From Kudoa neothunni (taxonomy: Eukaryota > Animalia > Cnidaria): 64,000 bases of DNA. A program made the translations under genes and the position numbers. Position 1 is the first letter of the stretch. Each line of letters begins with the position of its first letter. Under the pieces are notes generated by a model. It had not been told where the DNA came from. It saw only the letters and a program-made list of their open reading frames with translations, and did no database searches. The stretch spans positions 11,818,324 to 11,882,323 of the forward strand of contig OZ199838.1 in NCBI GenBank assembly GCA_964304625.1, read 5' to 3'. Positions 7,671 through 64,000 of this stretch are shown here, in pieces.

Positions 7671-10567
7671 TTATTTCGTAATTTGAGCTACGGCGTAAAT
7701 AGGAGCCTTCTTCTTTCTTTTGGACAGTCCGAAAAGCAAAAGGGCAATCAATCCAATAAGACACAATAATCCAAGCCTAAAATGATTATTACGCGCTATT
7801 GAAAATTACTTTTTATAAATAGTTACATCGAAAACAAGATTGTTTTGTTCCTTAAATAATAATATTAGTCAAATATATGATCAAACATTTTAAATACTTT
7901 GATTTAGAAGCACTCGCATTGTCTGATTGATCTTCTGGCACTATCGGGAAAAGATAATTATTGCCCGATAACTACAATCCAATTTACCCTCTTCTGGTAC
8001 AGCAGCAACTGGATTAGCAACAGCTGTATTAGTAGCAACTGGTTTAGTGTCACCTGAGACAGTACCAACGGGTATAGAACCGATTGGTACATCATCATCA
8101 TCATCATCATTAGTTGGCATATGATTCACGGTTGCACCTCCAGCTGGAACAGTTTGTATAACTTTGTGTTGACCCGGATTTTGACCATCGGCTATTTTAC
8201 CCTAAAATTTATTAGATTGATTGCATTGTTACGTATTCGAGCAAGTAAATAATTAATTATTAAAAGTGAAATTTTACATTGAAATCTTGGGCGTGAACGT
8301 TGGACACAGGTGGAGCATATTCTATTAATTATTTGATAAAAGTAAAAATTTATAACAACAATGGATTATTACTGTTGGATTTTGGATTTTGTACAACAAA
8401 AATATTTGAATCATGATTGGGATCCATAATGATGACGTTACCGTCGGCAAATATTTTTCTTTTGTGTGCTCTCACATTCGATATATCATATAAGTTGGTT
8501 TCATCCATTGTCAGTTGGATAGGTCTACGATTCGATTCCAATTCAAATGAAGGATCGGTATATTTCCTCATTCTATCAACTTCATAGTCAACTTCGATAT
8601 TGGGATCGTTATTAGTAGCAATATTGATGTTAATGTATTGATCAGAATTTGGCTTTTTGAGAAAGGTCTTGGCCACACCGAAATGTCTCGGGCGTACAAT
8701 GAATCGGGTAATTTTAGGGACAGCTTTGTTGTCAATAATAAAACCATCGTCGCATTTCACACTGCAATGTGTGGTGTAATCGCATTGAGCAGCCAGCTTA
8801 AGACGTGTTCCTTCCTTGTTCGACGAATACAATGTGTAATCGCAGTAAGTGTCTGGTCTATTCTCTCTAGGAAGTTGAACCTTGATTTGATCTCCGGTTA
8901 ATTGGGTAAGCACAACCGGATAATCTTCCAAACGACTCTCTATAATGCATAAATAATTAAAATCTATCATTATTTAATTCGTATATACTGGTTTTCACTT
9001 GAAACACTTTCTCTGAGTAATGCGAAAATGGCACAACTTTTATCGAATAAAGATGATATTGCTTGAGACCAATTACCTCAAATGTTGAACTACATGTATT
9101 CACACATCTGTCACTGTGAAGACATCTTCCAGGATGATAAACACCCGTATTATCATTCTGAATAAAAACCATACAGTAGGTTTGGTGGGCTAAAGCATCC
9201 GTTGATGGGGTAATAACCACGGAGTTGAGTCCAGGGTGTGCAATTAACTTGAGTAGTTCAGCTTCAACCGTTTTAAATGACACACTCGATTCGCAAGTCG
9301 AATTTCTAACTACAACTAATCTATATCGGGTATTTGGTTTTAGGTTTAACAGCCTTTTAGATGCACATTGAGTATCACATGATTGTTTCCCATCTTCGCC
9401 ACATATGTGACTCATCTCATAACCGGGATATTCCTCATAATAAAGCTTCATTTGGCAGTGGTGACCTTCTTCAGCTAAAAGATCTAAGCGAACCAAAACT
9501 GAATTGTGGGTTATATCTTCCAATTCAACAATATTTTTCCCGACTAAATACAACAATAATCTAATAAATCGAACCTTAAAAACTACTAATGAAGCAATTT
9601 TCGTAGTGAGAACTCATGTATTTGGTCTTTATTTTTAGAGTATAAGAAGGTGATGATCCTGTGGTGAGTGTCATAGTCACGTTGTTGCATGGGGTGAAGC
9701 ATTTGGTTGGTTGAGTACTCGAACCACAATTTTGGATCCACGTACCACTAGAAGTTCCTTCACATACTTGAAACTCACACATTTCCTTTGGTTTAGCATT
9801 CGAGAATTCCACTTTTAATGCAGTGGTAGAGCTCCCTTTTTTCATACTTAAGGAAAATTGCTTAGCGCCTTGATCTTTGACCAAATGAGTTTTTTTGGTA
9901 TAGACATACAGAGGAGCCTGTTCTTCGCCACAGAAGAGTTTGACACGATCTTTTGTGGAAATAAATTCGGTTGAAATGGTTCCAAATCGGTGGCATTCAA
10001 CATGATTTGACATGAATTTGATTGGGATATTGTTTTCCTTGATTTGACAAACGGTGTTGCCGGTGCATAGTTTAATGGTTTCGAACACAATTTTATCCTC
10101 TTGAAAGGATGCTTTTGCGTAGAGGGGTTTTTCAAAAACTAATTAAAATCAGAAACATTTCAACTTTACAAAAATATCACTATTTTTGAGCGTCAGATAA
10201 ATGTCGGAAGTAGAGGTACTACCACTGATTTTAACATAATAGGTGTCTTTGGGATCTGGGGGTATAAAGCTGTAGACTCCAACGCAACTGACCTGTGCTT
10301 CCTCTTGATTATCAGCAATGATAGGTTGATAGGAAAGAGTGTCGTTATGGAAGGTTAAAAGACTAATTGTGCATTTTTCTGTGGGATCTCCATTCAAGCT
10401 CAAATGAACGGTGTCTTTAGTAGTTGTAGGAGATCGCTCAATTTTGTATTTGGTTGCATAAACTATGGAATATATGAGTTAATTATAACTGACAAAGATG
10501 ATTCCACAATCTCACCTGATTTGTAAATCAGTTGAAAAGTCAACAGAGCGAAAAACACCAACCCCAT
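7671..10567 (-). CDS. Gene C: type I membrane protein with Cys-rich and 4-Cys FN3-like domains; distant paralog of array genes A and B
   Basis: Signal-peptide exon MGLVFFALLTFQLIYKS at 10567. FN3-like LEDITHNSVLV...LNLKPNTRYRLVV and VIGLKQYHLYSIKV. Poly-Asp and Pro/Ala/Val/Thr stalk. TM and tail MLGLLCLIGLIALLLFGLSKRKKKAPIYAVAQITK, stop at 7671-7673. Confidence 0.8.
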
Positions 10568-31689: not shown

Positions 31690-32568
31690 ATAACCGAACA
31701 AAATCAATATTCGTCAAAGGAAAGCGTTTGAATGTGGGAAGGAAACAACGTGAATTGATTAATTACTTGGTGGAATGGAACACTTACGAAGCTATTGGGG
31801 ATTTCCCGGTTTGTAAATATTGCATAGGACTTAACGAATTTTCCGATATACGATCTGATAGCCTTAATATGCCTAACTTTTCATTAAATTTTTTAACTAA
31901 TGCTCTTACTCCGTTATGTGATTTCTCAAAATTAATACAACAAACGACAATTTTACATCATGGATCTTTGATCCGATAAAGGATGACTTTCTAAGTAATG
32001 GAGATCATTTGGTCGAAAATTGCAAAGGTATTATTGGCTTTGTTCCATTTAAATCTTGAAACAATTTTATATTTAAATTTGAAAATTTGTGTGATGCCAC
32101 AAACGAAAAAATTGATCGATAAATGCTCAGAAATTTTGATTATCTTTATTACTTTTTAGAAGGTGAAAAGAAGATTGAGGTTAATAACAAATACTACATG
32201 TTATGTAAAATGATAAAAGATTCAACTCAACCCTCAAAGATTGATTCCTGAAATAAAGTGTGGAATGCTTGTCCCACTCTTTAGAGACTTTATCAAGATA
32301 TATTGATGCTACCAGTTTCCTCTATTAATGTTGAAAGCAGTTTCTCAAGATTGCAAAATATATTTGGAAAAAAAGGATCAATCTTTTTGATGGGAGCCTG
32401 GCAGTGCTCTAAATACTCGATTTTAATGGTCCATTATAACTAAACTTAAAGTTATTGGATCTATTTTTTTGTTAATTATGATTTTTTTTCCAAAATAAAA
32501 GCCGATAAAAATCGAATTAAATTTTTTTTATTTCGGTCAATAAAAACCGTCGAAAATCACCAACCCTA
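31690..32568 (+). mobile_element. Degenerate hAT-like transposon remnant between the COQ6 copies
   Basis: Broken reading frame with a dimerisation-domain-like LMLPVSSINVESSFSRLQNIF (~32300-32365). Ends in CACCAACCCTA, a TAGGG-type terminus. The left end was not located. Confidence 0.5.
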
Positions 32569-34088: not shown

Positions 34089-36123
34089 ATGAATTTGATT
34101 AAAAAATTTTGTAGAAATATTCATTATGACTACGTGATTTGTGGCGGAGCGTCAACAGGACTTGGCCTGGCCAATAAAATAGGCATTATTGGATCACCCA
34201 CATGATTAATTTGATAACTGTCATTAGCACAAAGTCAATATTTGAAAAATAAAAGATTACTTTTGATCGAAAAAAGTGATGGAATTGATTTTAATAAAAA
34301 GCACAACTTTCCCCGAACTGTTAATCGAGTGCTGTGCACAAATCCAAAAACAGTAGATCTATTTAAAGGTAACGTTTGAAGTACACACGCCTTTATTAGT
34401 TTTAATTTTGAATCATTATAAAGAGCTCAATATATGGGATGAACTTTCGAAATGCGCTGTCCATCCCAGTAAACGTATTGAAGTAATAAAATTCACAGTG
34501 ATATTAGTAGTTCGGTAAATGCGAACATTTATAGATTTGGGACGAATACACTGGTCTCCTTGAATTTAAGCCCATAACAAACGATTATTATCTTTGTTAC
34601 ATGATCGACAATGCTGTCCTTCAAACCTTGTTGTATAAGAAATTTTTGGGTTACGTGTCCGCGAAAAGGCACGACCTAATGTTAAACACTAGCATCGATT
34701 CAGTTCAGCGCTTTAAGGTACAAATTTGATTTTAAACATGAAATTTAATAGCATGTTTATAAAAATAAAAAGATGCTTTAAAACTATAAAATTTCTCATC
34801 TATTTTAATTGTTTAAATATTAAATATAGGAAAATAATGTGGATCGTATCGAGTTAAGGTTAAGTGACGATTCTACTGTTACTACGGATTTGTTGGTGGG
34901 TGTTCATATGACTATTAGATTGAATAAAAAATTACTTAGATTGGTTGTGATGGTGCTATGTCTCGAGTGAGAGAATTGGCTGAAATTCCCACCTGGACAC
35001 ATGATTACAACATGAGTTTGCATGTTGGTACCGCCAAGCATTCAAATGTAATTGGGCTATATAATTTTTATTGACATTTACTTATTTTTAAGGATGTCAA
35101 TGGAGATTATTACATTTAAAAAATTTACATCCAATGGATACGTAGCATTTCTACCTGTAATTCAACAATTTATTTAAACAATCTGACGCATTGAACAAAA
35201 ATTTTTTAAACATTATTAACGATTTTCTAAATAAATGCTACTGTATATAGCTGGGGTCCGGTTAATACATCATATGCTTGGTGTGTAAATGATCCAGAAG
35301 GGGATCGATTGGATCTTTTGGATAGTGTGGCATTGACTAATGTGATGAATGAATATTTGGTATGGATTATTTTGTCAAGGCTTACTTTACTTGACGGTAG
35401 GCGAGAAAATGTGAAATGTCGTCAATCTATTCTAAAGGCAAATCATTTTTGGACAATGTTATCATGGGATTAAAACCTGGTGCGGATATTTTCATTTCAG
35501 CAAATAAATAATTAATTACATTTAGGAAAACATGCCTCACTGTTAAGTGATTTCAATTATCGACCTCTTTTTATTGAATCTATTGACCAAAATTCGCGTT
35601 ATTCCTTCCCATTGAGACTTATATTGGCTAAGCAATATGTTAAAAATAATATAATTTTGGTTGGGTAAGTATATATATATATATATAGTTTTTGCTGATG
35701 ATTTGATATTATTAAAAATAAGAGATGCCGCTCATCGTATCAATCCAATTACGGCGCAAGGATTAAATCATGGTTACAAAGATGTTGTACAACTCACCAA
35801 ACTCTTAGAAGATACTCATTTACTTGGTTTCAATAACTGTAGCTTTATTCGTATAAAACAACGACACTTATCTAACTTATATTACTTAAGACAATGCAAA
35901 GTTTTTAAAAAAATATGATAGAAGAAGAAAGCTCGACGTGGCTTTGCATGTGGGATTCGGATCTATCACCAACTATGCATATGCAAACGACATAAAATCA
36001 TTGACGTTTGTTAGGTCGTTTTTCCTACATGCTGCTAACAAATTCCCATACAAAGTAACTTTATGATGTATTGTTTAGTCAGCTGTATTTTAGAATTCAA
36101 TTGTTCACAAAATTACATGCTAA
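34089..36123 (+). CDS. COQ6: COQ6-like monooxygenase, copy b (divergent tandem paralog, matching exon structure)
   Basis: YDYVICGGASTG; RVLCTNPKT; YMIDNAVLQ; LIGCDGAMSRVRE; ILVGDAAHRINPITAQGLNHGYKDV. Introns fall at the same positions as copy a where checked; stop 36121-36123. Confidence 0.78.
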
Positions 36124-36357: not shown

Positions 36358-38681
36358 TTATTTGCTGCTTTTGATTGATAGCACCGTTATCACTATTATG
36401 ATAGCCAAGATAAACAGACTAGCTAGGACCCTATAACAACGTTATCTACCACCATGATTAATAACAGACTATTTACATCCACCAGTTGTCTTCGATCCAT
36501 GTTCTAAATTGATAATTAAATATACGATATTATATTTAACGTAACACTTACGATTTTGCGGGAGCTAAAAATATAATATTAATAAACAATAGAATAAGAA
36601 TGTTTAATGGTATTCCAAACATAAACAGAAAATTAATCGGCAACATGTCATTAAATTTATTGTTTGGAAAATTATAATGAGAGTAATTTAGAAAAGTTAC
36701 AAGTGAGAAAAAATTTGGTTGGAAGACTGTAGAATTGAGCTTCAGCCACCACTGTATATGAAGTTGATTCACTCAACCCATAAATAAACAAGTATGATCC
36801 ACAGGAATACGAACAATCTTCTTTGCTCTCACAGCGCGCAACAATCAGATCAGCCTTGGTCCTGGGATCGGTTTTGTAAATTTTGAAATTGCACACCGTA
36901 GAAATTTCGGAATGTTGCAGATTGAATGCTAGACGTAGTTTTGTGCCATCGATCCACAGCGAGGAACTTTTTAAGGTTTCATATTGAGACACTTAATTTT
37001 TTGTTATTTAGAATTTGAAATGAGTTTATGGATAAATATGTTAATAGATAATTACATGTAGTTGCAGCTATGTCGATGCTACTGGGTGCGTAATAATTCA
37101 ATGGCTCTAGTACAATCGTGTATTTGGTTTTTGGAGTCAAAACTCCCATAAAAAATCCGTTAGAACAGAGATTAACACAAGGAAAACCAAATGAACATTG
37201 AATATTATCTAGAAACGCTTCAGTGCCTGTTTTCTTGACTTTAAGTTGACATAATGCATCCTTTATTTGAGAGTCAACTTTTATATTCAATTGTGCATAT
37301 TGTTTGGATGGATGTATCGTATAGTCAAGTTTTGGTAGTCCCACTAAGGTTAGATGTCGATTAATTATAACGAAACTAATTAATCACCTGTTTCGAATGA
37401 TGTATATGAAAACTGGTTTTCGGTGTGTTCAACTTCAACTATGTACTTGGTTTTTGGTAGAAGATTTTCCAGTTTTAAGTCAACACAGGTGTTGGTGCAT
37501 TTTTGCTTACCATCTTTTCCGCAAATTCTCTTTCGCCCGCTCTTCGGGTAGCCAAAATGATAGAGAGTTACTTCACATCGAGTATTATCATCCACCTTCA
37601 ACGATGACATATTCAATGTAACGGAACTTTGAGTTATTGCCGTAACCTCAATGATATTCTTATCAGCTTTATTCAGATTAATGATTTAGAATTACTAATT
37701 TCAATTACAGTTTAGTTCTACTATGTAGGGATCCTTATCATGGCGTGTGTTTATTGATACTGTGAAAATACCATTTGCTGGACTTATTTTCATCTTGACG
37801 TGTGTACATGGTCTGAAACATTTGTTCGGAGTTGAAGTTGAATTAATAAAGCAATCTTCAACATAGTTAGAGGTAGATTTCCCTCCTTGTTTTATTTTAA
37901 ATTGACATATATCGTCAGGTTTAGGATCGTGAAAATGAATAACTAGACTATCTGTTACACCGGAAGTTTTATTTAGAGAAATGGCAAATTTTCTAGGTCC
38001 TTCTGGAATCATCAACTCCGTGTTGGCGTAGTCGAAGAATACGTTCGCCTCAGACGTTCCACAGAATAACTCTAGGGGAAAATTCGACGGTCGTCTATAC
38101 GTAGCCGATAGCTCGTAGTATCTCCCACAGTTAACATTAGCAGGAATACTATCCAAAACTATATGTTTATGTCTGATTTGGCATGTTGTTGAAAACTGGC
38201 AATTTTTCTTCACTTTAAAGTAGACATTGTCTTCTATCAATTTGGGAACCACATTTGGTGGCTTGGGAAAGTCTATTTTATAATATTAAACTCTTATAGA
38301 AACAGAATTATATTACTGTTTTCTACATAAATATAATGTGTTGACTTTTTTGATTTAATTGACATGTAGTATGATGTTTGAGCTTTGTTAGTTTTAACCG
38401 ATACTTCATCACGACAATCCACCGTACAAAATGGTAAAATTCCACATCGTACGTCTTCATATTGAGCTACGTTATCGGTTACACTAAGTAACTTTATCGT
38501 GCATGATGTTTTTGCCGTCCCTCTCAATCTCAAGTAAATTGTGTCACTCCCAGCAATTCGTTCTACCATATACTGATGCAGACAAACTAAGAATAAGGTA
38601 GCTAAACTACGATTTAATTCAGTTATATGTACCTTGTTTGACACAAAACAATGACCATATCAACCACAACCATAGCTCCAT
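36358..38681 (-). CDS. Gene A1: type I membrane protein with Cys-rich and three 4-Cys FN3-like domains
   Basis: Signal exon MELWLWLIWSLFCVKQ. FN3-like LENLLPKTKYIVEVE, LTPKTKYTIVLE and GLSESTSYTVVAE. 13-nt microexon 36552-36564, then a 27-nt exon (TWIEDNWW) and TM exon VLASLFILAIIIVITVLSIKSSK*. Confidence 0.8.
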
Positions 38682-38759: not shown

Positions 38760-41700
38760 TTGTAAATTTCCGGATCAATATTTACGAAGAAGTATTATAT
38801 CCATTTATTGTCGAATGATTATTTCATCGAATTCATGAAACGGTATATAATACAATTGATTGTCGGTTAGTTGGACATGAGATCTAATTTTTGGATAGCA
38901 TGCAAATAATGTTTATTTTTATGTTAACTAACATTTATGTATTTAATCGAATATAACTGAAATATCATTGAACAGAATCAAAGCTTTTTTTACTTTTTTT
39001 TCTGCGAATAAAGATATATAGGGATATTTTAATATTGATTGAATATACACCGTAAATAAATATTTTTTACATTTTAAATAATATTGAATGATAATCAATA
39101 TAAATATAACGATAAACGTGACCTGCATTTTTTATATAATTATAAGTTATTAGGCAAATAAAAATTTATTTTATATAGGCTTAGATAAAACGTGATAAAT
39201 AAATCTGAATAAAATTTAATAATAAATAATAATTATCATTTCATTGAAAGTAAAATAATTATTTCGTTCAGTAGAAAGAGGAAAGCCGCTTAGTCACCAG
39301 CTCTAGTTGCTACAAAAGCCACTCCTCCAATAACCACAGCCAAAGCACCCAACACTGCGAGGATGCTAAATAAAAGAATTATGAAATTTTTAACCATATT
39401 TCACATCAAAATTACATCCACCAGTTCTTCTTCATCCAACCACTATATATAAAAAATAAATAGTTAAAATTCGTAATTTATATAATAATTATTATTACCC
39501 AGTCCCTTGTTCTATACAAAATTATATAACAATATATAGATAACCTAATAATTTACTTCCAACTTCAATCTCTTCAATAAGTGCTGCAGATTGTCCATCG
39601 TCAGATAACAACTGATAACTGTAATTTATATCTATATCCTCAAATACAACGGAGCTTGCACAATCAATATCTTGATCAGTTGGTTTTCCTATCTTCTCAA
39701 ATAAGAATTTATCCTCGGGATCTTTGGGATTGACGGCGTAGATAACCACATTACATAAATTCCCTGACTGAGTTTTGTCTGGTATGATGGTTAATCTCCT
39801 TTCGTAACCATCAAAAATGATGTCTGGTTTTACTTTATCATTATTTTTTCCTAAAAATAACGTTATAACGTTTTCAAATCAAGATTTAATCACTTAGCAG
39901 TCGCGACACTTGATAAACTGTGTAATCAATGTGACCAGCATGAACCAACTCGATATTTATGGTTACATTCACTGGCAAATCCACCACTTCGAATCTGTGA
40001 GAACATAAACCCCAACATGGTTTTCCATCAGAACAGGTGGCTATTGTTTTTTTAAATCTTCTGGATCTCTTGTATCTCACGTAACATGTCATTTTTGGAA
40101 GATACGACTCATATTCACTCCCTGCTCCTGGGATCATGAGCATTGTATCACCGAAAAAGAATGTTTGTGTCTCGCTGAATTGTATTGTTTCTAATCATAC
40201 TAAGTATTTATAATATAATATATGTATACTTGTGGCGAAAAACGAATTAACAGCATATTCAGCACTATTTTTTTCTGCTCCAATTTTCATCTCAAGAATG
40301 TATGCTGTGTTGGGAGTCAAAAGCTTTAGCGGTGTCTTATTGTCACATGCTTCAGGGCAAGCTTCATTTCTCTCTTCCCCACATATCGCAGTCATTGGTA
40401 GACCGGGAAGTTTCGCGTGTACCAATGATGGAAAACACTTAGGTGAATTCTCAAGGTTTGATACTTGAAAACTAGCTGAGGTTGCTGTGATATCAGATAT
40501 AGCAACAGTATTTTTTGTATCTATAAAATTCTGTAATTTATTATTTCGTTAAGGTTATACCTTTAACTTTATATTCTGCATATCCACGTCTAGTTCCAAT
40601 TTTGACTGTATAATGATCTGCAGCAGCATTTTGATTAGCCAAGTTTAAAGTAGTAGCTCCACCACAGTACTTGAAACATTTATCACTTTCGCCATTTCCA
40701 GCCTGACTACATTTTTCCGCGTATGTGCTAACACTATTACTCTTTATTTGGAAATTGCAGATCTCATTGTTCAAATATGGATTATGCATTTGTAATGAGA
40801 AATCTGTGTGTGGAGAGGTGGATTGAGAAGAAGTAAAAGGAACATATTGGTATTTGTTATCTTTATTGTAGAAAGACTTGTTAGCGTAAAACATGACTTT
40901 AGCTTGATTAGCCCCACAGTAAGAATAATAGGCATTGGACATTGAGTATCGAATTGGTATAGTAATGTTATGTAGATTACAGCTGTTATTTTCTACTTTA
41001 GCCAAAGTTCTATCATGTTTTGTACTTTTAACTCGGCATTTATAGTTGTCAGTGCAGAAATTGTTAACTCCGAATTGCGCTTCTTCTTCACTCAATGTTA
41101 CATTAGTTTCAGGAAGTCTGGGCATATCTATTGAAAAATGAGCTGAAAATTATAAGTATTATTGCTGTTTACCTGCCGGAATCGCTAATATATTTATTTT
41201 TCTTCCTTCAACAATTCTGAAATAGTGCATCAACCGTCCACTATTGACATTAATCACAACTATCTGATTACATTTCGTTTCGCACACAGGTAGAATATTT
41301 GCTTCAGTGGTTGCTCCAGATATTTTGCATATTGTCTCATTAAATTTTGCTCTAACTCCATTTCTAAATAAATGGTCTATTTTACAATCTTCGTTTTCGT
41401 CTCCTTTCAGATAAATTGTAATTTCGTCCATGTATGTTGAGATTTCTTGATCAACTATAGGTATATCGTCTGGATTTATTGTAGTTTCGGGAGGAGGGGT
41501 AGTGGTAATAGTTTCGGTAGCATCAATCGAGATGTCATTATCAGTTGGCGCGGAATCTTCATTTTCAGAATCATCGTCAGCTCCAGAATCATCTCCATTT
41601 TCAGAATCAACTTCAGTTTGAGAATTATCACCAGTTCTAGTACTATCTTCAATAACAGGATTAACATCACCAGAGTCACTTTCAGCATCAGGACTATCGG

Positions 41701-42055
41701 ATTTCATAAATATCGGATGAATATTCGACATTAAAAGCCGGCTACTTTGAGCAGCAGTAACATCGGTATTGGGAGCTTCTTCTGCTGCTGGTTTTTCCAC
41801 TACTGATGGAGGTGGTGGTGGTGGGCGTTTAATTTGTTGAACGAAATATTTGTGACAACGTGCTAAATATGAATAACAGAATTAAAAAATGACAGAAAAG
41901 CAATATATTACTAGTTGTGAGAGCTGTTAAAAATAAAAACAATATTGACAGCCTCATTTTATTAATTCTTCGTTATTAATCATTCATCGGAGTTATTGAA
42001 GTCACTAAAATTACGTCGCCAATAAACGATAATAGTCTATAAGAATTAGTTAATT
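38760..42055. repeat. Tandem segmental duplication unit (B gene plus B-A intergenic region), repeated at 48366-51755 and partly at 61860-64000
   Basis: Direct comparison shows long identical and near-identical tracts, including introns and flanks. Confidence 0.95.
39290..41957 (-). CDS. Gene B1: type I membrane protein with acidic/mucin-like N-terminus, Cys-rich and 4-Cys FN3-like domains
   Basis: Signal exon MRLSILFLFLTALTT; D/E/S/T-rich region; ICGEERNEACPEACD..LLTPNTAYILEM; 13-nt microexon 39499-39511; GWMKKNWW; TM IILAVLGALAVVIGGVAFVATRAGD*. Confidence 0.82.
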
Positions 42056-42101
42056 AATACTCAGTATATGCTTCCGAAGATGCTTTCTTACTTTTTTTAA
42101 T

Positions 42102-45100
42102 GGCAGTGTCTATTTTGCCGGACGCGCTTTTTCTCTTAAAATAATAATTCAATCGCTACAATTTTTTCCAAAAAATATCTTTTATAAATGCAGAATATAA
42201 ATTTAGTTTCATTTATCTTTTAATTAATAATTAGGTATCAAAATACATCGAGGATATTTTAAACTCATTCATAAGTATCATTATAAATGACATTAAATTT
42301 TTTATAAATCTGTATTATTTACATAATTAATTTAATTTTATGTGTAACAGAATCATAAACGAGTAAAATACCCTCTAGCGTGCGGTTGTAACTTTGATAG
42401 TCGCGAGTAGAATCACTATGGAAGGAGAGTCTGATCAAACACTACTAATTCAGGATATTACATCAGGCCCTAAGGTCGGAAATGCATTTACAAACTTTGA
42501 AAAGGCTAAAAAAATCATGGATAAGTACTCAAAGCGGAACAACCTTTGTTACTGGGTCCGAGACTCTAGAAAAATCTCAACTGCCCTAAAAAAATTTGAT
42601 AGAGACATGAACTCTGATCTTGTTTATTATGAAGCCACTTTTTGTTGTGTTCATGGTGGTAAAAATGTAATTATCTATATAAAAATTGATGTAATTAATT
42701 TGAATTCAGATACAATCTAAAAGTTCTGGAAAGAGAAAAATCAACAGCCATAAAAGTGGTTGCAATTTCTTCATTACACTGCGAGTTCCTAAAAACATGA
42801 ATATGTTAGTTATTAGAAAATTGGATCATACTCACAGCTGCAACAGAAATGAGCATTTTAGGAATTTTTTACCAATGAATAGAAAATTAGATGAAGAAAG
42901 CAAGAATCTTATAAAAAATGTTCATTTTTATGATGGAAATTTAAAAAGAGTACAAGTAGAAATCATGAACCAATCACAAAAAAAGGTTTCGTTGAAGCAA
43001 ATCCATAATTATATTCAAACACTAAAAAAATGTTTCGTTGGATATTTCGGAATTGTTTAATTCAATAAAAAAATTCTTACCCAAATGCAACTATCGAAAT
43101 ATTGCACAATAACTCCAATGAAATGACTGGAATATTTTTCCAAGACCTTTATATGAAAAATGTTATTAAAAAATTCCCCGAATTAGTATTTATGGATGCT
43201 ACTTATAAATTAATCAATAATCGTATCCCATTGTATATAAGTCTGTTTATCGATTCTTTTGAGCAAAGCCAAATAGGAGCTATTGCTCTTTTATCTGAGG
43301 AGAGTACCGTGACTGTTACCTGGTTATGTCAATCTCTACTTAAACATAACGAGGAAATGTCAACCAAAACAGTTTGTTTCATTACGGATAAAGACATAAT
43401 TGAAAGAAACTCTATGAGATCTGTATTTCCTAACGTAAGTACAAACTTATGCCTGTACCGTGTCTTAAGAACATTTGGTAGAGAAATCTCTACTTTAAGA
43501 ATGAGAATAAACAAAGCTGAAAGAAAAGCTGCCTTAGAGTTGATTCAAAAGCTTTGTTATACCGATGATCCAAAAATTTATGAAAATTACCATGAATTGT
43601 TAAATAAGACATGTAACAAAAAATCATTAGTTATTATAATAAATCTTGGGATCCAATCAAATATGAATGGTGCCCGGCATACATGAACCTAAAGGGTACT
43701 TTTTAAATGAAACCAATAATCGATTAGAATGCATAAATTCCAAAGTTAAACAAATCTTAAAAAAATTATCAACAATTGAAGTCTTTTTCAGCGATCTACT
43801 TATTTATTTATCAAGTATGAGGACTGAGCGTGAGAGTAAAGCAGTTAAAGAGTTTACAACCCAAAATGTTGAGAAATTAAATTCGGACATTAACGGACGA
43901 TATAAAACATTGTTACCTTCATATGCGTATAATATTATGCAGAATGAAATAAATAATTATATCGAACCCTATACCAATCCTGATCCCAATAGTTGTACAT
44001 GTTATTTCTACGTAAGTATGGAGTTGCCATGTAGGCATATTATTTACGCTAGAAAAATAATGAACATGAATTTATATGACGAGAAAATTTGTAATAAGAG
44101 GTGGCACAAAGAATATTACCTGTCATTTATTCAAATGACCAAAAATTTATATCTTCAAAATCCTTCGTGTTGTGTGCAACCAAGTATTACAGAAATTTAG
44201 AGTCAGTGACCTGTTCCGAATTCTGCTTTTAAGCGATACAGGGAGCTAGAAATTCTTTGTAAGAAAATAGCTTCGCTAGGGTCTGAAAAAACAGGGAGTC
44301 AATATGATTCATTAAAAAAGATTTTAGGTGAATTAATCTCTCTTATTTCCAATGGGGATTCTCTGGATAAGGTGACTATTTTTTCCACTATTCATATATC
44401 AACTTAATTTAGTTCAAGTTAATGTCTGAATCTGTCATCATAAACAATCAAGAGATTTCAATCCCAACATGTAATTAATGATATTGTCTTTAGTAGAATT
44501 TTTATTTCGTGTTTAGTTACTGAGGAATCACGATTAGAGAATGAGGATATACTAGAAGCAGTTAATGATAATGCTCCATCATCAATAATTGATATGGAGA
44601 TCCCGAATATTGTAGATGATACCACAACTAAAAATCCATCTTTGAAGGGTGTGTATCTTTTGTCCATTTTGCTAAATTCATAAAATTATAGGAATTAAGC
44701 TGCCAACAGTAGTGAAATTGAGAGGTAGACCAAAAGGTGTATTTCAAACAGTTATTGGTTTAAGAAAAAAAAGAAAATTATAATTATGATAATAATAAAC
44801 ACCAGTATCGATATATAGTATTCAAATATAGTTTTACGTGGATGTTAAACAGTCCCAATTATTTGGCGTTGCATTACAAGATAATTTCAAACATTTATTA
44901 TTTAAAAGCAGTATACTCAACATTTTATTAAATTTTAGTAGTGTATCAATCATCTGTTAAAAACATTTACCTAATTATAAAAATTTTAAATACGAATTGG
45001 CCAAATAGTTTTACTTTACTGTATTTTCATTTGGATATTATGGATACAAATTAGCTATGTTAAAATTCGTCACTGAATTAATGAAACTAAATTTATATTC

Positions 45101-45191
45101 TGCATTTATAAAAGATATTTTTTGGAAAAAATTGTAGCGATTGAATTATTATTTTAAGAGAAAAAGCGCGTCCGGCAAAATAGACACTGCC
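42102..45191 (+). mobile_element. Mutator-like (MULE) DNA transposon with ~110-bp TIRs and 9-bp TSD
   Basis: TIR GGCAGTGTCTATTTTGCCGGACGCGCTTTTTCTC... at 42102, inverted and ending at 45191. TSD TTTTTTAAT at 42093-42101 and 45192-45200. Confidence 0.93.
42418..44783 (+). pseudogene. MULE/SWIM (ZSWIM1/3-like) transposase, intron-containing, with frameshifts
   Basis: FMDATYK, FITDKD, TNNRLECIN (DDE); SWIM zinc finger CTCYFYVSMELPCRH; AT-hook RGRPK. Frame breaks near 43030-43100 and 43620. Confidence 0.8.
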
Positions 45192-45986
45192 TTTTTTAAT
45201 TTTAAATTGGCATATATCATCAAGGTTAGGATCGTGAAAATGAATAACTAGACTATTAGGTTTATCGGAAGTTTTATGAAGGGAAATGGCAAATTTCCTA
45301 GGTCCTTCTGGAATCATCAACTCCGTGTTGGCGTAGTCGAAGAATACGTTTGCCTCAGACGTTCCACAATATAACTCTAGGAGAAAATTTGACGGTCGTC
45401 GATATGTAGCCGATAACTCGTAGTATCTCCCACAGTTAACATTAGCAGGAATACTATCCAAAACTATATGTTTATGTCTGATTTGGCATGTTGTTGAAAA
45501 CTGACAGTTTTTCTTCACTTTAAAGTAGACATTGTCTTCTATCAATTTGGGAACCACATTTGGTGGCTTGGGAAAGTCTATTTTATAATATTAAACTCTT
45601 ATAGAAACAGAATTATATTACTGTTTTCTACATAAATATAATGTGTTGACTTTTTTGATTTAATTAACATGTAGTATGATGTTTGAGCTTTGTTAGTTTT
45701 AACCAATACTTAATCACGACAATCCACCGTACAAAATGGTAAAATTCCACATCGTACGTCTTCATATTGAGCTACGTTATCGGTTACACTAAGCAACTTT
45801 ATTGTGCATGACGTTTTTGCCGTCCCTCTCAATCTCAAGTAAATTGTGTCACTCCCAGCAATTCGTTCTACCATATACTGATGCAGACAAACTAAGAATA
45901 AGGTAGCTAAACTACGATTTAATTCAGTTATATGTACCTTGTTTGACACAAAACAATGACCATATCAACCACAACCATAGCTCCAT
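45192..45986 (-). pseudogene. Gene A2: 5' part of a duplicate of A1, disrupted
   Basis: Near-identical to A1 37905-38681. In-frame stop at 45710-45712 (GAA in A1). Interrupted by the MULE; ~40 nt continue on the far side (42060-42101) and the rest of the gene is missing. Confidence 0.85.
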
Positions 45987-46067: not shown

Positions 46068-48357
46068 CAGTGGCTCTTAACCTGGGTTCGATGAAAAAAT
46101 TCCTAATATTAGATCACATTTAGGATTAATATTCTTTATAATTTTAATATTTTAAATAAACCTTCTATTGGTTGTCTTTATAATCCTGATTAGGAGCTCA
46201 ATTAAAAAGATAATAATGATCACTTAAAAAATTATGGATAATTTAGCTAAAATTATTATTTGAGCATTTGAAATTCTTTTCGATTTATCTGATTAGTACA
46301 ATCACGTGTAACTGGTTACAGAGTTTACTTCGCGTCAGTGTTATTTACTTGCTAATTTTGTGAGGGTTACTGGAAATAAACATTGGCACTTTGAATGTTT
46401 AACCAAAAAAGAAAGTGATCAATTGATTTTGTACAGTTCGGTTTTACCTATGTAACGGAACTTAATTGTATTCAACGACCTCTTTGCATGATATGCAACT
46501 CGAAGTTAAGTAATTCTAGTTTGGTACCGGCGAAACTAAAAGAGCATTTTACAATTGTCCATGGAGACTCTGCATATAGGAATATGACTCTTTCCGAACT
46601 TGGAGCAAAGAGAGTAAGATATGACGTAAGATCTACTTTGCAAAATTTTTGATTTGTTAATATCGATAAGCCTATCTTAACAGTAACATATGAAGTTTCA
46701 TATCGCATTGGAAAACAAGGTGAACCTCACAATATTAGTGAAACGCTCGTTAAAGCTGTCGCGTTGAAGATGGCAAATATTTTATTGGGAAGTATTGCAG
46801 AAAAAAAATTAGCACAAATTCCTTTGTCAAATGATACCGTTAAGAAAAGAATTGATGATATGATTAAAGATATTTTGGATCAATTATTTTCTGATCTAAT
46901 TTCATGTAAAGCAAAGTTTAGTATACAATTTGAAGAAACTGCTGATATATCAAACCTAAGTCAACTGGTTTCGTTTGTTAGATATTTGAAAAATGGTGTT
47001 ATTGTTGAATATTTTCTTTTTTGCAAACCTTTAACAACAACTGCCAAGGCAGTGGATGTTAAGAAAGTTGTCGATGAGTTTTTCAAAGACAATGGGCTTT
47101 CATGGAATATGGTTTCTTCTTTTTGCACTGATAGTGCCCAAGCTATGCTGGAGCGTAACTCTGGTTTTTGTGCTCTTGTGAAAGCAGATGCACCTCATAT
47201 TATTGTTATGCATTGCATTTTACATTGATATGCATTAGCAACAAAGAATATGTCTCCAAGGTTGGCAGAAGTGTTGAAAATCGTGATAGATTGTGTAAAT
47301 TTTGTGAGACGTAATGCTTTGAACCATCGAATTTTTAAATATTGCTGCAAAGAAATGGATTCTGAGTTTGAATTACTTTTGTTTTATTAAAATGTGAGGT
47401 GGCTGTCTCGAGGGAAGTATTAAACCGCGTTTTCACTCTGCGAAAGGAAATGGGTATATTTTTGCTGGAATGTAACCATTGCCATGCACAATGTTTCAAT
47501 AATTTGGAATTTAATCTTCTTTTGGTATACATGGCTGATATTTTTGATTCCATAAACTGTTTGAACCTGCAGATGAAAGTAAATGGAGTCAAAATCATTG
47601 AGGCAGAGATGCATCTTAGTGCATTCCAAATAAAATAATCTTTATACAAACGAAGAATAATGGTCGACAATTATGCAAACTTTCCACGTTTAGACGATAT
47701 TTGTAATATTAATGGCGACGGTAACAACGAATTGATCATTTTACCTTTTGCATTAAGGGAAATAATTACTGCAAATTTAAAAGAACTTTCTAACTCACTC
47801 GATGGCTATTTCCCTTCTAAAAATTCATTCCCCGGCTGGGTGAGGCAGCCATTTAGCTGAGGATGCCAATAATAAATATCTTGATGAGCTAATCGAACTT
47901 CAACACAACACAATTCAAAAACAACTTTTCGAAAAAGTTTCACCATCAATCTTTTGGATAAATCAAATTGAGAAATATCCTGCAATTTCGATGAAAGCAT
48001 GGAAGTTTTTATTCCTTTCGTAATAACTTATCTTTGCGAACAATCATTTTCAAGATTGGTCACCATGAAAACTAAATTAAGAAATAAGCTTTTCTGTGAA
48101 AACGATATGCGAATTGCTCTCTCCAGCATTTTGCCTCGTATTGTGGATTTGGTTGCAAAAAAACAAGAACAAAAATCGCACTAATTGGATTTATATTAAT
48201 TTTATTTATACGTTTTGCAATTTTTATGATGTGCAAAATAATGATTAAATTGTAATTCATTTTATTTAAAATTTAAAAAATTTTATGTTTGAGGTTCGAC
48301 GAGGCGTGCTATAGGGTAATAGTGGTTCGGCGACTCTCAAAATGTTGAGAACCACTG
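46068..48357 (+). mobile_element. hAT (Buster/SPIN/ZBED8-like) transposon with decayed transposase
   Basis: TIRs CAGTGGCTCTTAAC / GTTGAGAACCACTG; 8-bp TSD CTATAGAT (46060-46067, 48358-48365). The empty site is seen in the paralogous region at ~38753. Motifs IPLSNDTVKKRIDDM, FCTDSAQAML, HCILH, TYLCEQSFS; multiple stops. Confidence 0.95.
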
Positions 48358-48953: not shown

Positions 48954-51651
48954 TTAGTCACCAGCTCTAGTTGCTACAAAAGCCACTCCTCCAATAACCA
49001 CAGCCAAAGCACCCAACACTGCGAGGATGCTAAATAAAAGAATTATGAAATTTTTAACCATATTTCACATCAAAATTACATCCACCAGTTCTTCTTCATC
49101 CAACCACTATATATAAAAAATAAATAGTTAAAATTCGTAATTTATATAATAATTATTATTACCCAGTCCCTTGTTCTATACAAAATTATATAACAATATA
49201 TAGATAACCTAATAACTTACTTCCAACTTCAATCTCTTCAATAAGTGCTGCAGATTGTCCATCGTCAGATAACAACTGATAACTGTAATTTATATCTATA
49301 TCCTCAAATACAACGGAGCTTGCACAATCAATATCTTGATCAGTTGGTTTTCCTATCTTCTCAAATAAGAATTTATCCTCGGGATCTTTGGGATTGACGG
49401 CGTAGATAACCACATTACATAAATTCCCTGACTGAGTTTTGTCTGGTATGATGGTTAATCTCCTTTCGTAACCATCAAAAATGATGTCTGGTTTTACTTT
49501 ATCATTATTTTTTCCTAAAAATAACGTTATAACGTTTTCAAATCAAGATTTAATCACTTAGCAGTCGCGACACTTGATAAACTGTGTAATCAATGTGACC
49601 AGCATGAACCAACTCGATATTTATGGTTACATTCACTGGCAAATCCACCACTTCGAATCTGTGAGAACATAAACCCCAACATGGTTTTCCATCAGAACAG
49701 GTGGCTATTGTTTTTTTAAATCTTCTGGATCTCTTGTATCTCACGTAACATGTCATTTTTGGAAGATACGACTCATATTCACTCCCTGCTCCTGGGATCA
49801 TGAGCATTGTATCACCGAAAAAGAATGTTTGTGTCTCGCTGAATTGTATTGTTTCTAATCATACTAAGTATTTATAATATAATATATGTATACTTGTGGC
49901 GAAAAACGAATTAACAGCATATTCAGCACTATTTTTTTCTGCTCCAATTTTCATCTCAAGAATGTATGCTGTGTTGGGAGTCAAAAGCTTTAGCGGTGTC
50001 TTATTGTCACATGCTTCAGGGCAAGCTTCATTTCTCTCTTCCCCACATATCGCAGTCATTGGTAAACCAGGTAGATTCGCGTGTACCAATGATGGAAAAC
50101 ACTTTGGTGTATTCTCAAGGTTTGATACTTGAAAACTAGCTGAGGTTGTTGTGATGTCAGATAACGTAACAGTATTTTTTGTATCTATAAAATATCGTAA
50201 TTTATAATTTAGTTAAGCTTATACCTTTAATTTTATATTCTGCATATCCATGTCTAGTTCCAATTTTGACGGTATAATCAGCATTAAGAGCACTATCTTG
50301 CCCATCCACGACCAATGTGGTGGCTCCACCACAGTACTTGAAACATTTGTCATTGACAGTACTTCCAGTCTGACTACATTTATCCTTAAAATCATTGCCA
50401 GTATCTTTAATTTTGAAATTGCATATCTCATTGTTCAAATATGGATTATGCATTTGTAATGAGAAATCTGTGTGTGGAGAGGTGGATTGAGAAGAAGTAA
50501 AAGGAACATATTGGTATTTGTTATCTTTATTGTAGAAAGACTTGTTAGCGTAAAACATGACTTTAGCTTGATTAGCCCCACAGTAAGAATAATAGGCATT
50601 GGACATTGAGTATCGAATTGGTATAGTAATGTTATGTAGATTACAGCTGTTATTTTCTACTTTAGCCAAAGTTCTATCATGTTTTGTACTTTTAACTCGG
50701 CATTTATAGTTGTCAGTGCAGAAATTGTTAACTCCGAATTGCGCCTCTTCTTCACTTAATGTTACATTAGTTTCCGGAAGTCTTGGCATATCTATTAAAG
50801 AATAAGCTTAAAATTATAGGTAATACTATTATTTACCTGCTGGAATCGCTAATATATTAATTTTTCTTCCTTCGACAATTCTGAAATAGTGCATCAATCG
50901 CCCACTATTGACATTAATCACAACTATCTGATTACATTTCGTTTCGCACACAGGTAGAATGTTTGCTTCAGTGGTTGCTCCAGATATTTTGCATATTGTC
51001 TCATTAAATTTTGCTCTAACTCCATTTCTAAATAAATGGTCTATTTTACAATCTTCATTTTCGTCTCCTTTCAGATAAATTGTAACTTCGTCCATGTATG
51101 TTGAGATTTCTTGATCAACTATAGGTATATCGTCTGGATTTATTGTAGTTTCGGGAGGAGGGGTAGTGGTAATAGTTTCGGTAGCATCAATCGAGATGTC
51201 ACTATCAGTTGAAATGTCACTATCAGTTGAATTGTCACCCTCAGTTTCAGAATCATCTTTAATTTCTGGATTATCTTCAACCTCAGGATTGTCATCAGCA
51301 CTAGCATCTCCATCAGCCTTAGGAGTACCTTCAACGCTAGATTCAACTTCGGTTCTAGAATCACCTCCAGCACTAGAACTACTATCATCATTAGAAGTAA
51401 TGGATTTCATAAATATCAAGGGAACATGTGACATTGAACTCTGGCTGTCTTTAGTAGCATCAGCAGCGGGTTGGGAGTCTCCTGCTGGATTTTCTACTGC
51501 TAATACTGGTGGTGGAGGGCGTAGAATTTGTTGAATGAAGTATTTGTGACAACATGCTAAATATGAATAAGAGAATTAAAATATGACAAAAAGTTAAATA
51601 GTTACTAGTTGTGAGAGCTGTTAAAAATACAAACAATATTGACAGCCTCAT
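48954..51651 (-). CDS. Gene B2: paralog of B1
   Basis: Same exon structure as B1. The 3' exons are essentially identical; the N-terminal acidic region and third Cys domain diverge. ORFs are intact. Confidence 0.82.
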
Positions 51652-61949: not shown

Positions 61950-64000
61950 TTAGTCACTGGCTCTAGTTGCTACAAAAGCCACCCCTCCAATAACCACAGC
62001 CAAAGCACCCAACACTGCGAGAATACTAAAAAAAGAATTATGAACTTTTTTACTATATTTCACATCAAATTACATCCACCAATTCTTCTTCATCCAACCA
62101 CTATATATAAAAAATAAACAATTATAATTAATAATTTATATAATAATTATTGTTACCCAGTTCCTTGTTCTATACAAAATTATATAACAATAAATAGATA
62201 ACCTAATAATTTACTTCCAACTTCAATCTCTTCAATAAGTGCTGCAGATTGTCCATCGCCAGATAACAACTGATAACTGTAATTTTATATCTATATCCTC
62301 AAATACAACGGAGCTTGCACAATCAATATCTTGATCAGTTGGTTTTCCTATTTTCTCAAATAAGAATTTATCCTCGGGATCTTTGGATTGACGGCGTAGA
62401 TAACCACATTACATAAATTCCCTGGCTGAGTTTTGTCTGGTATGATGGTTAATCTCCTTTCATAACCATCAAAAATGATGTCTGGTTTTACTTTATCATT
62501 ATTTTTTCCTAAAAATAAAGTTACAATGCTTTCAAATCAAGATTTAATCACTTAGCAGTCGCGAAACTTGATAAACTGTGTAATCAATGTGGCCAGCATG
62601 AACCAACTCGATATTTATGGTTACATTCACTGGCAAATCCACCACTTCGAATCTGTGAGAACATAAACCCCAACATGGTTTTCCATCAGAACAGGTGGCT
62701 ATTGTTTTTTTAAATCTCTGGATCTCTTGTATCTCACGTAACATGTCATTTTGGAAGATACGACTCATATTCACTTCCTGTTCCTGGGATCATGAGCATT
62801 GTATCACCGAAAAAGAATGTTTGTGTCTCGCTGAATTGTATTGTTTCTAATCATACTAAGTATTTATAATATAATATATGTATACTTGTGGCGAAAATGT
62901 ATTAACAGCGTAGTCAGCACTACTTTTTTGAGTGCCAATTTTCACCTCAAGAATGTATGCTGTGTTGGGAGTCAAAAGCTTTAGCGGTGTCTTATTGTCA
63001 CATGTTTCAGGGCAATTTTCATTTCTCTCTTCCCCACATATCGCAGTCATTGGTAGACGGGAAGTTTCGCGTGTACCAATGATGGAAAACACTTAGGTGA
63101 ATTCTCAAGGTTTGATACTTGATAACTTGCTGAGGTTGTTGTGATATCAGATATAGCAACAGTATTTTTTGTATCTATAAAATATCGTAATTTATAATTT
63201 AGTTAAGCTTATACCTTTAATTTTATATTCTGCATATCCATGTCTAGTTCCAATTTTGACGGTATAATCAGCATTAAGAGCACTATCTTGCCCATCCACG
63301 ACCAATGTGGTGGCTCCACCACAGTACTTGAAACATTTGTCATTGACAGTACTTCCAGTCTGACTACATTTATCCTTATAATCACTGCTCACTTTTATTT
63401 GAAAATTGCAGATCTCATTGTTCAAATATGGATTATGCATTTGTAATGAGAAATCTGTGCGTGAGAGGTGGATTGAGAAGAAGTAAAAGGAACATATTGG
63501 TATTTGTTATCTTTATTGTAGAAAGACTTGTTAGCGTAAAACATGACTTTAGCTTGATTAGCCCCCACAGTAAGAATAATAGGCATTGGACATTGAGTAT
63601 CGAATTGGTATAGTAATGTTATGTAGATTACAGCTGTTATTTTCTACTTTAGCCAAAGTTCTATCATGTTTTGTACTTTTAACTCGGCATTTATAGTTGT
63701 CAGTGCAGAAATTGTTAACTCCGAATTGCGCCTCTTCTTCACTTAATGTTACATTAGTTTCCGGAAGTCTTGGCATATCTATTAAAGAATAAGCTTAAAA
63801 TTATAGGTAATACTATTATTTACCTGCTGGAATCGCTAATATATTAATTTTTCTTCCTTCAACAATTCTGAAATAGTGCATCAACCGTCCACTATTGACA
63901 TTAATCACAACTATCTGATTACATTTCGTTTCGCACACAGGTAGAATGTTTGCTTCAGTGGTTGCTCCAGATATTTTGCATATTGTCTCATTAAATTTTG
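61950..64000 (-). CDS. Gene B3: third B paralog, 5' end beyond the window; apparent frameshifts all in homopolymer runs
   Basis: Collinear with B1/B2 including the microexon and TM exon (..VATRASD*). Single-base indels near 62284, 62385, 62716, 62750, 62897, 63057 and 63562. Confidence 0.72.

What the first reader, a model, noticed from the sequence alone, without database searches (positions are those of the whole stretch)
40541..40810. Variation concentrated in the same homologous domain (third Cys domain) in both subfamilies
Seen: B1 EICNFQIKSNSVSTYAEKCSQAGNGESDKCFKYCGGATTLNLANQNAAADHY; B2 EICNFKIKDTGNDFKDKCSQTGSTVNDKCFKYCGGATTLVVDGQDSALNADY; B3 EICNFQIKVSSDYKDKC. The preceding ~120 aa of the exon are identical in B1 and B2. 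A1 and A2 differ in the equivalent domain (KTSGVTDS..DPKPDDICQFKIKQGGKSTSNYVE vs KTSDKPNS..DPNLDDICQFKIKKSKKASSEAYTE) while upstream domains are nearly identical. Cysteines are fixed and inter-Cys loops vary, including in length. Inference: variable loops on a fixed disulfide scaffold under diversifying (host immune or ligand) selection.
Basis: partly seen in the sequence, partly recalled or inferred. Interest (0 to 1): 0.76.

Follow-up and report, generated by a model that had tools for sequence, protein, structure and literature searches.

The report
Surface protein family with variable loops
Near-identical genes for a predicted cell-surface protein, in what is likely a fish parasite, differ mainly in the loops of two neighbouring domains, likely because copying between genes evens out everything except a surface that would touch host molecules; the usual signal of positive selection was not found.

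Summary
The variation is real and strongly clustered, but positive selection is not shown. The window holds an unnamed family of predicted single-pass surface proteins with six cysteine-braced, fibronectin-III-like domains (B1, B2, B3, A1, broken A2, distant C) in an AT-rich, short-intron animal, probably a myxozoan (inferred). Among folded domains, 30 of 31 B1/B2, 31 of 34 B1/B3 and 18 of 21 B2/B3 replacements lie in domains 3 and 4, mostly in predicted loops. An unnamed relative and contigs of one sequencing sample show the same hot spot. However, synonymous divergence in the block is also high (dS 0.48-0.64); dN/dS is 0.37-0.52 for the block and about 1.0-1.15 for the loops, not above 1. 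The genes are mosaics with long identical tracts. The N-terminal acidic region is even more divergent, and the A2 comparison rests on a truncated pseudogene split by a transposon. Best reading: a divergence island at the domain 3/4 junction, kept by selection against gene conversion (about 0.5); relaxed loops escaping conversion neutrally is close behind (about 0.3).

The parts
39290..41957 (-). Gene B1, 9 exons, 766 aa: signal peptide, acidic/Pro region, Thr/Pro linker, six Cys-braced domains, hydrophobic C-terminal helix, 5-residue tail
   Evidence: GT-AG introns of 39-56 bases give one open frame; hydropathy peak 2.9 at residue 742; splicing inferred, no RNA
40562..40765 (-). Divergence block in domain 3 of B1 (codons 367-434), the finding
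   Evidence: 50 of 202 bases differ from B2, against 20 of 584 upstream and 1 of 940 in the 3' part
40715..40738 (-). Variable loop after strand C (C-C' loop), length varies among B1, B2, B3
   Evidence: Strand assignment from the model; lowest contig depth, 7-11
40679..40708 (-). Variable loop between second and third cysteine (C'-E loop)
40613..40642 (-). Variable E-F loop of domain 3, length varies
40230..40520 (-). Domain 4 of B1, second variable domain; B3-type cluster at 40255-40279 (inferred F-G hairpin) and a variant with indels at 40438-40462 (inferred B-C loop)
   Evidence: 13 replacements B2/B3, 10 B1/B3, 5 B1/B2; same letters in contigs of X1-X3; loop names from sequence pattern only
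41543..41862 (-). N-terminal acidic/Pro low-complexity region of B1, most divergent part of the protein, absent from A1 and C
   Evidence: 60 of 104 residues differ from B2, dN/dS about 1
48954..51651 (-). Gene B2, 776 aa, mosaic: 5' half like B3, 3' half like B1
61950..64000 (-). Gene B3, cut by the window end, ten one-base indels (broken or unpolished)
36358..38681 (-). Gene A1, six collinear domains, no acidic region, hydrophobic C-terminus
   Evidence: first six exons splice in frame; each domain best matches the same-numbered domain of B1 or C in most cases; 3' exons not modelled exactly
45192..45986 (-). A2, 5' part of a truncated pseudogene copy of A1 (stop in domain 1)
   Evidence: A2-type letters also in X1-X3 contigs
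42102..45191 (.). Mutator-like DNA transposon inserted in the domain 3 loop of A2, 9-base target duplication
   Evidence: 118-base inverted match, junctions, Pfam MULE and ZSWIM hits
42067..42092 (-). Short tail beyond the transposon, possibly the rest of the A2 loop, then sequence homologous to B2 upstream
   Evidence: likeness to A1 not significant, p = 0.38; B1/B2 match starts at 42066
46068..48357 (.). hAT-like DNA transposon between B2 and A2, 8-base target duplication
   Evidence: junctions; weak DUF4371 hit; class name from recalled end pattern
7671..10567 (-). Gene C, distant paralog: six domains, membrane-proximal low-complexity stalk, helix, short basic tail
   Evidence: first five exons splice in frame (my stalk exon coordinates were off); domain matches

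Best explanation
These genes encode a family of predicted membrane-anchored surface proteins with six small cysteine-braced domains, in which long stretches are identical between copies, likely through gene conversion and unequal crossing over, while the loops of domains 3 and 4 stay different, likely because selection keeps several versions of a surface that would contact host molecules. Shown: the gene structure, the mosaic of identical tracts, the clustering of replacements in domains 3-4, strong constraint on domains 1-2 and on the domain 3 strands, and loops changing at about the neutral rate. Predicted: a seven-strand fibronectin-III-like fold. Inferred: the C-C' and E-F loops of domain 3 (A-B in other copies) and the B-C and F-G loops of domain 4 would meet at the domain 3/4 junction, the geometry that cytokine receptors use to bind ligand; conversion tracts that overwrite this patch would be selected against, so synonymous sites beside it diverge too; recombination would reshuffle old loop sets (B2 is a B3/B1 chimera) rather than create them by fast point mutation. 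The selecting agent (host antibody or a variable host ligand) and the parasitic lifestyle are inferred, not tested.
For: Replacements in domains 3-4: 30 of 31, 31 of 34, 18 of 21 in the three pairs. Replacement-to-synonymous contrast against other folded domains: p = 0.0003 (B1/B2), 0.0009 (B1/B3), 0.078 (B2/B3). Scaffold dN 0.03 with dS 0.45-0.48 in the block; domains 1-2 dN/dS 0.02. Identical tracts of 848 and 320 bases (B1/B2), 399 and 218 (B2/B3), with a switch of the odd copy near 40450-40350. Independent sequences: P0121 matches B1 at 71 of 92 residues in domain 2 and 49 of 91 in domain 3 (p = 0.001); A1/A2 7 of 9 replacements in domain 3; in runs X1 and X2 (one sample) summed contig depth at 80% likeness falls to 7-12 over 40685-40741 against 49-120 over 40837-40960, and one contig replaces 40438-40741 by 301 other letters. 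B1-type and A1-type domain 3 recur almost unchanged in that sample (4 differences in 160 bases; 0 in 319 and 435), as expected of old maintained types. A peak of divergence marks selected sites under conversion (PMC3924837, passages). E-F, linker, B-C and F-G loops form the ligand site of IL3R-alpha (PMC5785977, passages).
Against: No test gives dN/dS above 1: block 0.37-0.40 (ML) or 0.52 (NG86), loops 0.92 (chosen after the fact) and 1.04-1.15 (model-defined), none above 1 significantly. Only one intact pair was available at DNA level. Introns 1 and 2 differ at 10 of 49 and 10 of 45 bases, more than the intron beside the block (6 of 40), so patchy escape from conversion also happens at neutral sites. 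The C'-E loop, also variable, would lie at the other end of the domain from the junction. Domain 4 loop names come from sequence pattern, not a model. Summed contig depth is no copy number, and X1-X4 are one sample that may be related to the window's source. The organism was not identified by any search.
Confidence: 0.5

Rival explanations
1. Neutral escape: the domain 3 loops tolerate change, early indels there blocked gene conversion locally, and the island then persisted in all copies without selection for difference.
For: Loop dN/dS is indistinguishable from 1; dS in the block is 4-6 times that of domains 1-2; introns 1-2 and the low-complexity N-terminal region also stay divergent; loop lengths differ, which impedes conversion (established knowledge).
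Against: Loops of domains 1, 2, 5 and 6 show almost no replacements even where synonymous changes have built up (1 to 11 for B1/B2; 3 to 12 for B1/B3); a separate cluster sits in domain 4 without an indel in B1/B2/B3; the domain 3 and 4 scaffolds are the best conserved between A, B and C, which suggests a working site rather than a dispensable one.
Confidence: 0.3
2. Self-recognition or adhesion code: the variable loops would set isoform-specific binding between the organism's own cells, as Hydractinia Alr proteins mark self, with no host involvement.
For: Clustered single-pass genes with tandem beta-sandwich domains and pseudogenes resemble the Alr complex (PMC9546547, abstract and section 6); a cnidarian affinity is plausible but unproven.
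Against: Tail of about five residues with no signalling motif; domains 2 and 3 share one exon, whereas Alr domains are each one exon (PMC9546547, section 6); variation lies between paralogs, while A1 domain 3 is unchanged in the other sample, unlike a highly polymorphic self marker.
Confidence: 0.1
3. Assembly effect: B2-A2 and B1-A1 are two haplotypes laid in tandem, or polishing made their 3' halves identical, so the contrast between block and flanks is partly artificial.
For: B1 and B2 share letters at 39601 and 39767 that all listed contig depth in 4 of 4 runs lacks; B3 is full of one-base indels; no listed contig spans the A2-tail/B1 junction.
Against: The sample's contigs carry B1-type, B3-type, A1-type and A2-type letters and further types, and the hot spot shows in B1/B3, B2/B3, P0121 and the contigs without using the B1/B2 3' identity. 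It would change paralog to allele, not remove the hot spot.
Confidence: 0.07

Closest known systems
Taeniid oncosphere antigens (EG95 family of Echinococcus)
   Same: Parasite surface proteins with signal peptide, fibronectin type III domain and C-terminal anchor, multi-isoform, variable under proposed host pressure (PMC2671473, abstract)
   Different: EG95 is described with one FN3 domain and a GPI anchor and has positively selected sites; this family has six domains with a C-x(13-20)-C-x(5-14)-C-x3-C brace, no sequence match to named proteins and no dN/dS above 1
Hydractinia Alr family (allorecognition complex)
   Same: Clustered single-pass genes and pseudogenes with divergent Ig-like and FN3-like domains that Pfam barely detects (PMC9546547, abstract, sections 6 and 12)
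   Different: [quoted passage not shown]
Variant surface proteins reported in Sphaerospora molnari (VSP-like, RIFIN/STEVOR-like, ETRAMP-like)
   Same: Duplicated single-pass membrane proteins clustered with Mutator-like elements in a myxozoan genome (10.64898/2026.02.11.705288, sections 10 and 11)
   Different: VSP criteria fail (3% Cys, no CXC/CXXC); fold predicted as beta-sandwich; that paper's main text has no occurrence of 'fibronectin' or 'gene conversion' (supplements not seen)
Divergence peaks under gene conversion (primate red/green opsins, MHC, plant R genes)
   Same: Homogenised flanks with a local island of divergence and nearby pseudogenes (PMC3924837, passages)
   Different: There the selected sites are known from function; here function is untested
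Class I cytokine receptor binding module
   Same: Variable loops map by inference to the same inter-domain elbow (E-F, linker, B-C, F-G; PMC5785977, passages)
   Different: No WSXWS motif, no signalling tail, different cysteine pattern (recalled); fold scores are generic (best Z 7.4)

Membership tests
Fibronectin type III domain (PF00041) | Seven-strand beta-sandwich | tested here: met
   Model of domain 3, pLDDT 81, seven long strands; FN3 chains at Z 6.2-7.1 tied with other Ig-like sandwiches, best Z 7.4, rmsd 3.0, 83 aligned. Predicted, and does not separate FN3 from other Ig-like folds
Fibronectin type III domain (PF00041) | Score above the Pfam cut-off | tested here: not met
   0 of 15 family stretches pass; best fn3 row E 0.061, 14 bits against 25; 0 of 8 relatives hit fn3. 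ESM Atlas lists fn3 clusters at 0.94 for domains 4-5 of C but with low recognition
Fibronectin type III domain (PF00041) | Strand B tryptophan and E-F leucine/tyrosine corner (PMC9546547, section 12) | tested here: inconclusive
   By eye: an L-x-P-x-T-x-Y pattern in domain 4 of B1, A1, C and domain 5 of A1; only the tyrosine in domain 3; no conserved tryptophan
   Loops 0.92-1.15, p 0.75-0.93 against 1; one pair, 26-28 codons, low power
Divergence peak under gene conversion | Local island of divergence between homogenised flanks, recurring in several copies | tested here: met
Divergence peak under gene conversion | Orthologous copies in a sister species showing that the duplicates are old and converted | not testable with these tools
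   No genome held; no related loci found
Diplomonad-type VSP as defined for S. molnari | At least 5% cysteine and at least 6 CXC/CXXC motifs | tested here: not met
   3.0-3.1% Cys, 0 CXC, 0 CXXC in B1 and B2 (criteria)
Diplomonad-type VSP as defined for S. molnari | Signal peptide, single C-terminal membrane helix, short tail | tested here: met
   Hydropathy peak at 736-765; signal peptide judged by eye
Hydractinia Alr family | Each domain on its own exon; cytoplasmic tail, often with ITAM/ITIM | tested here: not met
   Domains 2 and 3 share an exon in B, A and C; B tail is 5 residues
Hydractinia Alr family | V-set domain 1 and I-set domains 2-3 | tested here: inconclusive
   Only domain 3 has a usable model; domain 1 was not folded; the domain 2-3 model had pLDDT 48
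Class I cytokine receptor | WSXWS motif and cytoplasmic signalling region (recalled) | tested here: not met
   Neither present in B1 or B2 by inspection
EG95/45W oncosphere antigens | Detectable sequence relationship and GPI anchor | tested here: inconclusive
   No such hit; no direct comparison run; no GPI predictor available
Myxozoa (taxon of the window) | Phylogenetic placement of marker genes | not testable with these tools
   FATP exon is 36-52% identical to the 120 listed hits, mostly animal, none close; kelch exon 26-28%; no rRNA in the window. AT-richness, 39-56 base introns and Mutator/hAT/piggyBac load fit published myxozoan traits but do not prove it

The most novel reading that the evidence does not exclude
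A cnidarian fish parasite has built its own variant receptor repertoire: a six-domain fibronectin-III-like surface protein whose domain 3/4 elbow works like a cytokine-receptor or antibody combining site, diversified by segmental gene conversion among many paralogs and pseudogene donors, and used to bind variable host molecules or to stay ahead of fish antibodies.
Probability: 0.2. Interest if true: 0.8.

Novelty: new variant of a known kind. Interest (0 to 1): 0.5.

Why it matters
The family has no named relative or Pfam family in the searches run, and five literature searches listed no paper describing it. If the organism is a myxozoan, antigenic variation has been documented in that group with its molecular basis largely unknown (10.64898/2026.02.11.705288, section 10). 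A family with constrained domains 1-2 and 5-6 and a narrow variable patch gives a direct test, with named loops, of whether a parasitic animal varies a binding surface by gene conversion, and points to the conserved domains as the better diagnostic or vaccine antigens. The evolutionary pattern itself (variable loops on a fixed scaffold in a converting surface-gene cluster) is well known from other systems.

Tried and rejected
No whole genome held. Word-based protein search with the domain 2-3 exon among longer proteins: 224 candidates, none at E 0.01. ESM Atlas, same exon: no usable hit. Profile search of 1.84 billion proteins: 10 hits; 2 of 10 (P0125, a fish Ig-like protein, and P0128, a cadherin-domain protein) lack the cysteine pattern and were dropped; P0130 was left out of alignment A3. 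Related loci: none in metagenome or prokaryote genome contigs. Rfam: 0 matches. Two-domain model too poor to use (pLDDT 48); its Foldseek rows (CD4, cytokine receptors, TM 0.2-0.36) were not relied on. Foldseek with the domain 3 model: nothing at E 0.001. Two copies of domain 3 folded together: no answer, score 0.00, no evidence either way. No RNA holder listed; X7 (DNA) and X10 (RNA) laid 0 reads, which is no test. Earlier findings: nothing in 3 look-ups. Taxon searches with FATP and kelch exons gave no close relative. Rejected: that the A2 loop is a usable homologous comparison; that variation is confined to domain 3; VSP, Alr and cytokine receptor membership. The first loop-only dN/dS (0.92) used loops picked after seeing the differences and was replaced by model-defined loops.

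Full report
Setting. The window is 22-39% G+C by kilobase, has short GT-AG introns (39-56 bases in B1), animal-type housekeeping genes without close relatives (FATP exon 36-52% identical to the 120 listed hits of 7,603; kelch exon 26-28% to 3 hits) and several DNA transposons. No genome is held. Four runs of one sample hold 32-65% of the words of B1. A myxozoan fish parasite fits these traits: Mutator-like, hAT, pogo and piggyBac elements are reported as expanded in that group (10.64898/2026.02.11.705288, section 11 part 1 of 2) and mean introns can be short (82 bases in Kudoa iwatai, PMC8855578, passages). This is inference; no call placed the organism.

The family. On the minus strand lie B3 (cut by the window end), B2, A2, B1, A1 and, 26 kb away, C. 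B1 and B2 splice to 766 and 776 residues: signal peptide, acidic/Pro region, Thr/Pro linker, six domains of about 93 residues, a hydrophobic helix and five more residues. A1 and C have the same six domains in the same order. Two cysteines are invariant and two nearly so across 24 aligned domains. Domain 3 folds with pLDDT 81 as a seven-strand sandwich that matches Ig-like and FN3 chains generically (best Z 7.4, none at 8). Pfam gives only sub-threshold FN3-type rows. A profile search found 10 proteins, 8 of them unnamed relatives that keep the domain 3 cysteines, and 2 dropped as spurious.

The observation. The quoted peptides are there. Between B1 and B2, 25 of 67 aligned codons in the block 367-434 change residue, against 1 in domain 1, 0 in domain 2, 5 in domain 4 and 0 in domains 5, 6 and the anchor; a shuffle test gives p below 0.0001. 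Differences fall on 21 of 50 non-strand and 5 of 46 strand positions of the model. Three things were missed. The N-terminal acidic region differs more (60 of 104, dN/dS about 1). Domain 4 is part of the hot spot: B2 and B3 differ at 13 residues there and 5 in domain 3, and the B3 cluster at 40255-40279 is also in contigs of X1-X3; domains 3-4 together hold 30 of 31, 31 of 34 and 18 of 21 folded-domain replacements. A2 is a truncated pseudogene with a stop, split in the loop by a Mutator-like element; its tail does not match A1 better than shuffles (p = 0.38). The A evidence is 7 of 9 replacements in the first 34 codons of domain 3, in loops that B1 and B2 share.

The selection test. In the block NG86 gives dN 0.25 and dS 0.48; a codon model gives dN/dS 0.37-0.40, significantly below 1, with scaffold dN 0.03 and dS 0.45-0.48. 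Synonymous changes at unchanged residues are enriched in the block (9 of 42 against 16 of 524 elsewhere, p = 0.00002; against 11 of 180 in domains 1-2, p = 0.005). With a shared synonymous rate, model-defined loops (28 codons, 21 changed) give 1.04-1.15 and the scaffold 0.09-0.10. So the loops change at about the neutral rate inside an old segment. Power is low: one pair.

Mosaic structure. B1 and B2 are identical over 848 and 320 bases, B2 and B3 over 399 and 218. Upstream of about 40450 B1 is the odd copy, downstream of 40350 B3 is, so B2 is a chimera. B2-A2 followed by B1-A1 reads as a tandem duplication whose unit ends inside A domain 3 (inference). Introns 1-3 differ at 10 of 49, 10 of 45 and 6 of 40 bases, introns 4-8 at 1 of 233.

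Outside evidence. P0121 is 77% identical to B1 in domain 2 and 54% in domain 3 (p = 0.001). In X1 and X2 the summed contig depth at 80% likeness drops about sixfold or more over the first two loops and again over the E-F loop, and one contig replaces 304 bases by 301 others; depth is no copy number and the four runs are one sample. That sample also holds B1-type and A1-type domain 3 almost unchanged, so the types look old and stable, not hypermutating. It differs from B1/B2 at all listed depth at 39601 and 39767, so it is probably not the window's own DNA, or the window has shared consensus errors.

Mechanism. Under frequent conversion, selection to keep duplicates different produces a local peak of divergence, and pseudogenes can act as donors (PMC3924837, passages). 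That fits: homogenised flanks, a recurring island with raised dS, constrained strands and free loops, and purifying selection on the loops of the other domains (replacement to synonymous 1:11 for B1/B2, 3:12 for B1/B3, 3:8 for B2/B3, the last contrast not significant). In FN3 topology (established knowledge) the A-B, C-C' and E-F loops of domain 3 face the B-C and F-G loops of domain 4; E-F, linker, B-C and F-G loops make the ligand site of IL3R-alpha (PMC5785977, passages; elbow binding also in PMC5382266, passages). I therefore propose a variable binding or antibody-exposed patch at the domain 3/4 junction (0.5). The C'-E loop does not fit that patch, and domain 4 was not modelled. Neutral escape helped by loop indels explains the same rates (0.3). 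Self-recognition (0.1) and assembly effects (0.07) are less likely.

Comparison. It works like taeniid FN3 antigens (PMC2671473, abstract) or other converting surface-gene clusters, but is not shown to belong to any: VSP criteria fail, Alr exon and tail rules fail (PMC9546547, abstract and sections 6, 12), cytokine receptor motifs are absent (recalled features, checked by eye). Papers seen: 10.64898/2026.02.11.705288 abstract, sections 5, 9, 10, 11 (first part), 22 and passages, supplements not seen and possibly relevant; PMC11792419 passages, which mention up-regulated Ig-superfamily-like genes in one stage without describing this architecture; the rest as stated. Searches listed no paper on such a family; the library lacks most subscription journals.

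Verdict. Real feature, undescribed family, known kind of evolutionary pattern, selection unproven. Interest 0.5.

Noticed in passing
window 39416-39511, minus strand: B genes encode the membrane-proximal Trp-rich segment on two micro-exons of 13 and 27 bases; A1 has a similar motif.
   Followed up: partly
window 41543-41862 and 51200-51556, minus strand: B-specific N-terminal acidic/Pro region, most divergent part of the protein (dN/dS about 1, indels); could be a disordered decoy at the membrane-distal tip.
   Followed up: partly
window 65-1354, plus strand: Gene with three KIAA0319_N-like domains (one above the Pfam cut-off) and a hydrophobic stretch.
   Followed up: no
window 59189-60962: Element with 30-base inverted arms and an ISXO2/IS1595-like transposase domain (E 7e-11), likely a Merlin-type transposon (name recalled).
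   Followed up: no
window 55507-57227 and 57531-58813: Two piggyBac-like elements (DDE_Tnp_1_7) in opposite orientation sharing 27-29 base ends.
   Followed up: no
window 11966-16073: Two 69%-identical direct repeats of about 160 bases flank frames at 13419-15180 with no Pfam hit for the two tested; possibly an unclassified mobile element.
   Followed up: no
window 29345-35915, plus strand: Pieces of an FAD-dependent monooxygenase (COQ6-like by eye) spread over 6.5 kb, with repeats at 29871-30298 and 34533-35032 (75-80% identical); possibly a partial duplication.
   Followed up: no
window 42102-45191: The Mutator-like element's ends occur with many different flanks in X1-X4 contigs, so it is a multi-copy family; here it sits in the variable loop of A2.
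   Followed up: partly
window 2247-5430, 19721-20933, 25859-27872: Housekeeping neighbours: EF-hand/2OG-Fe(II) oxygenase (P4HTM-like by eye), EMC10-like, kelch-repeat protein, fatty acid transport protein.
   Followed up: partly
P0124, P0126, P0127, P0129, P0130: Distant unnamed relatives (15-17% identity to B1) form a further subgroup with the same domain 3 cysteines, so the family extends to other samples or species.
   Followed up: partly
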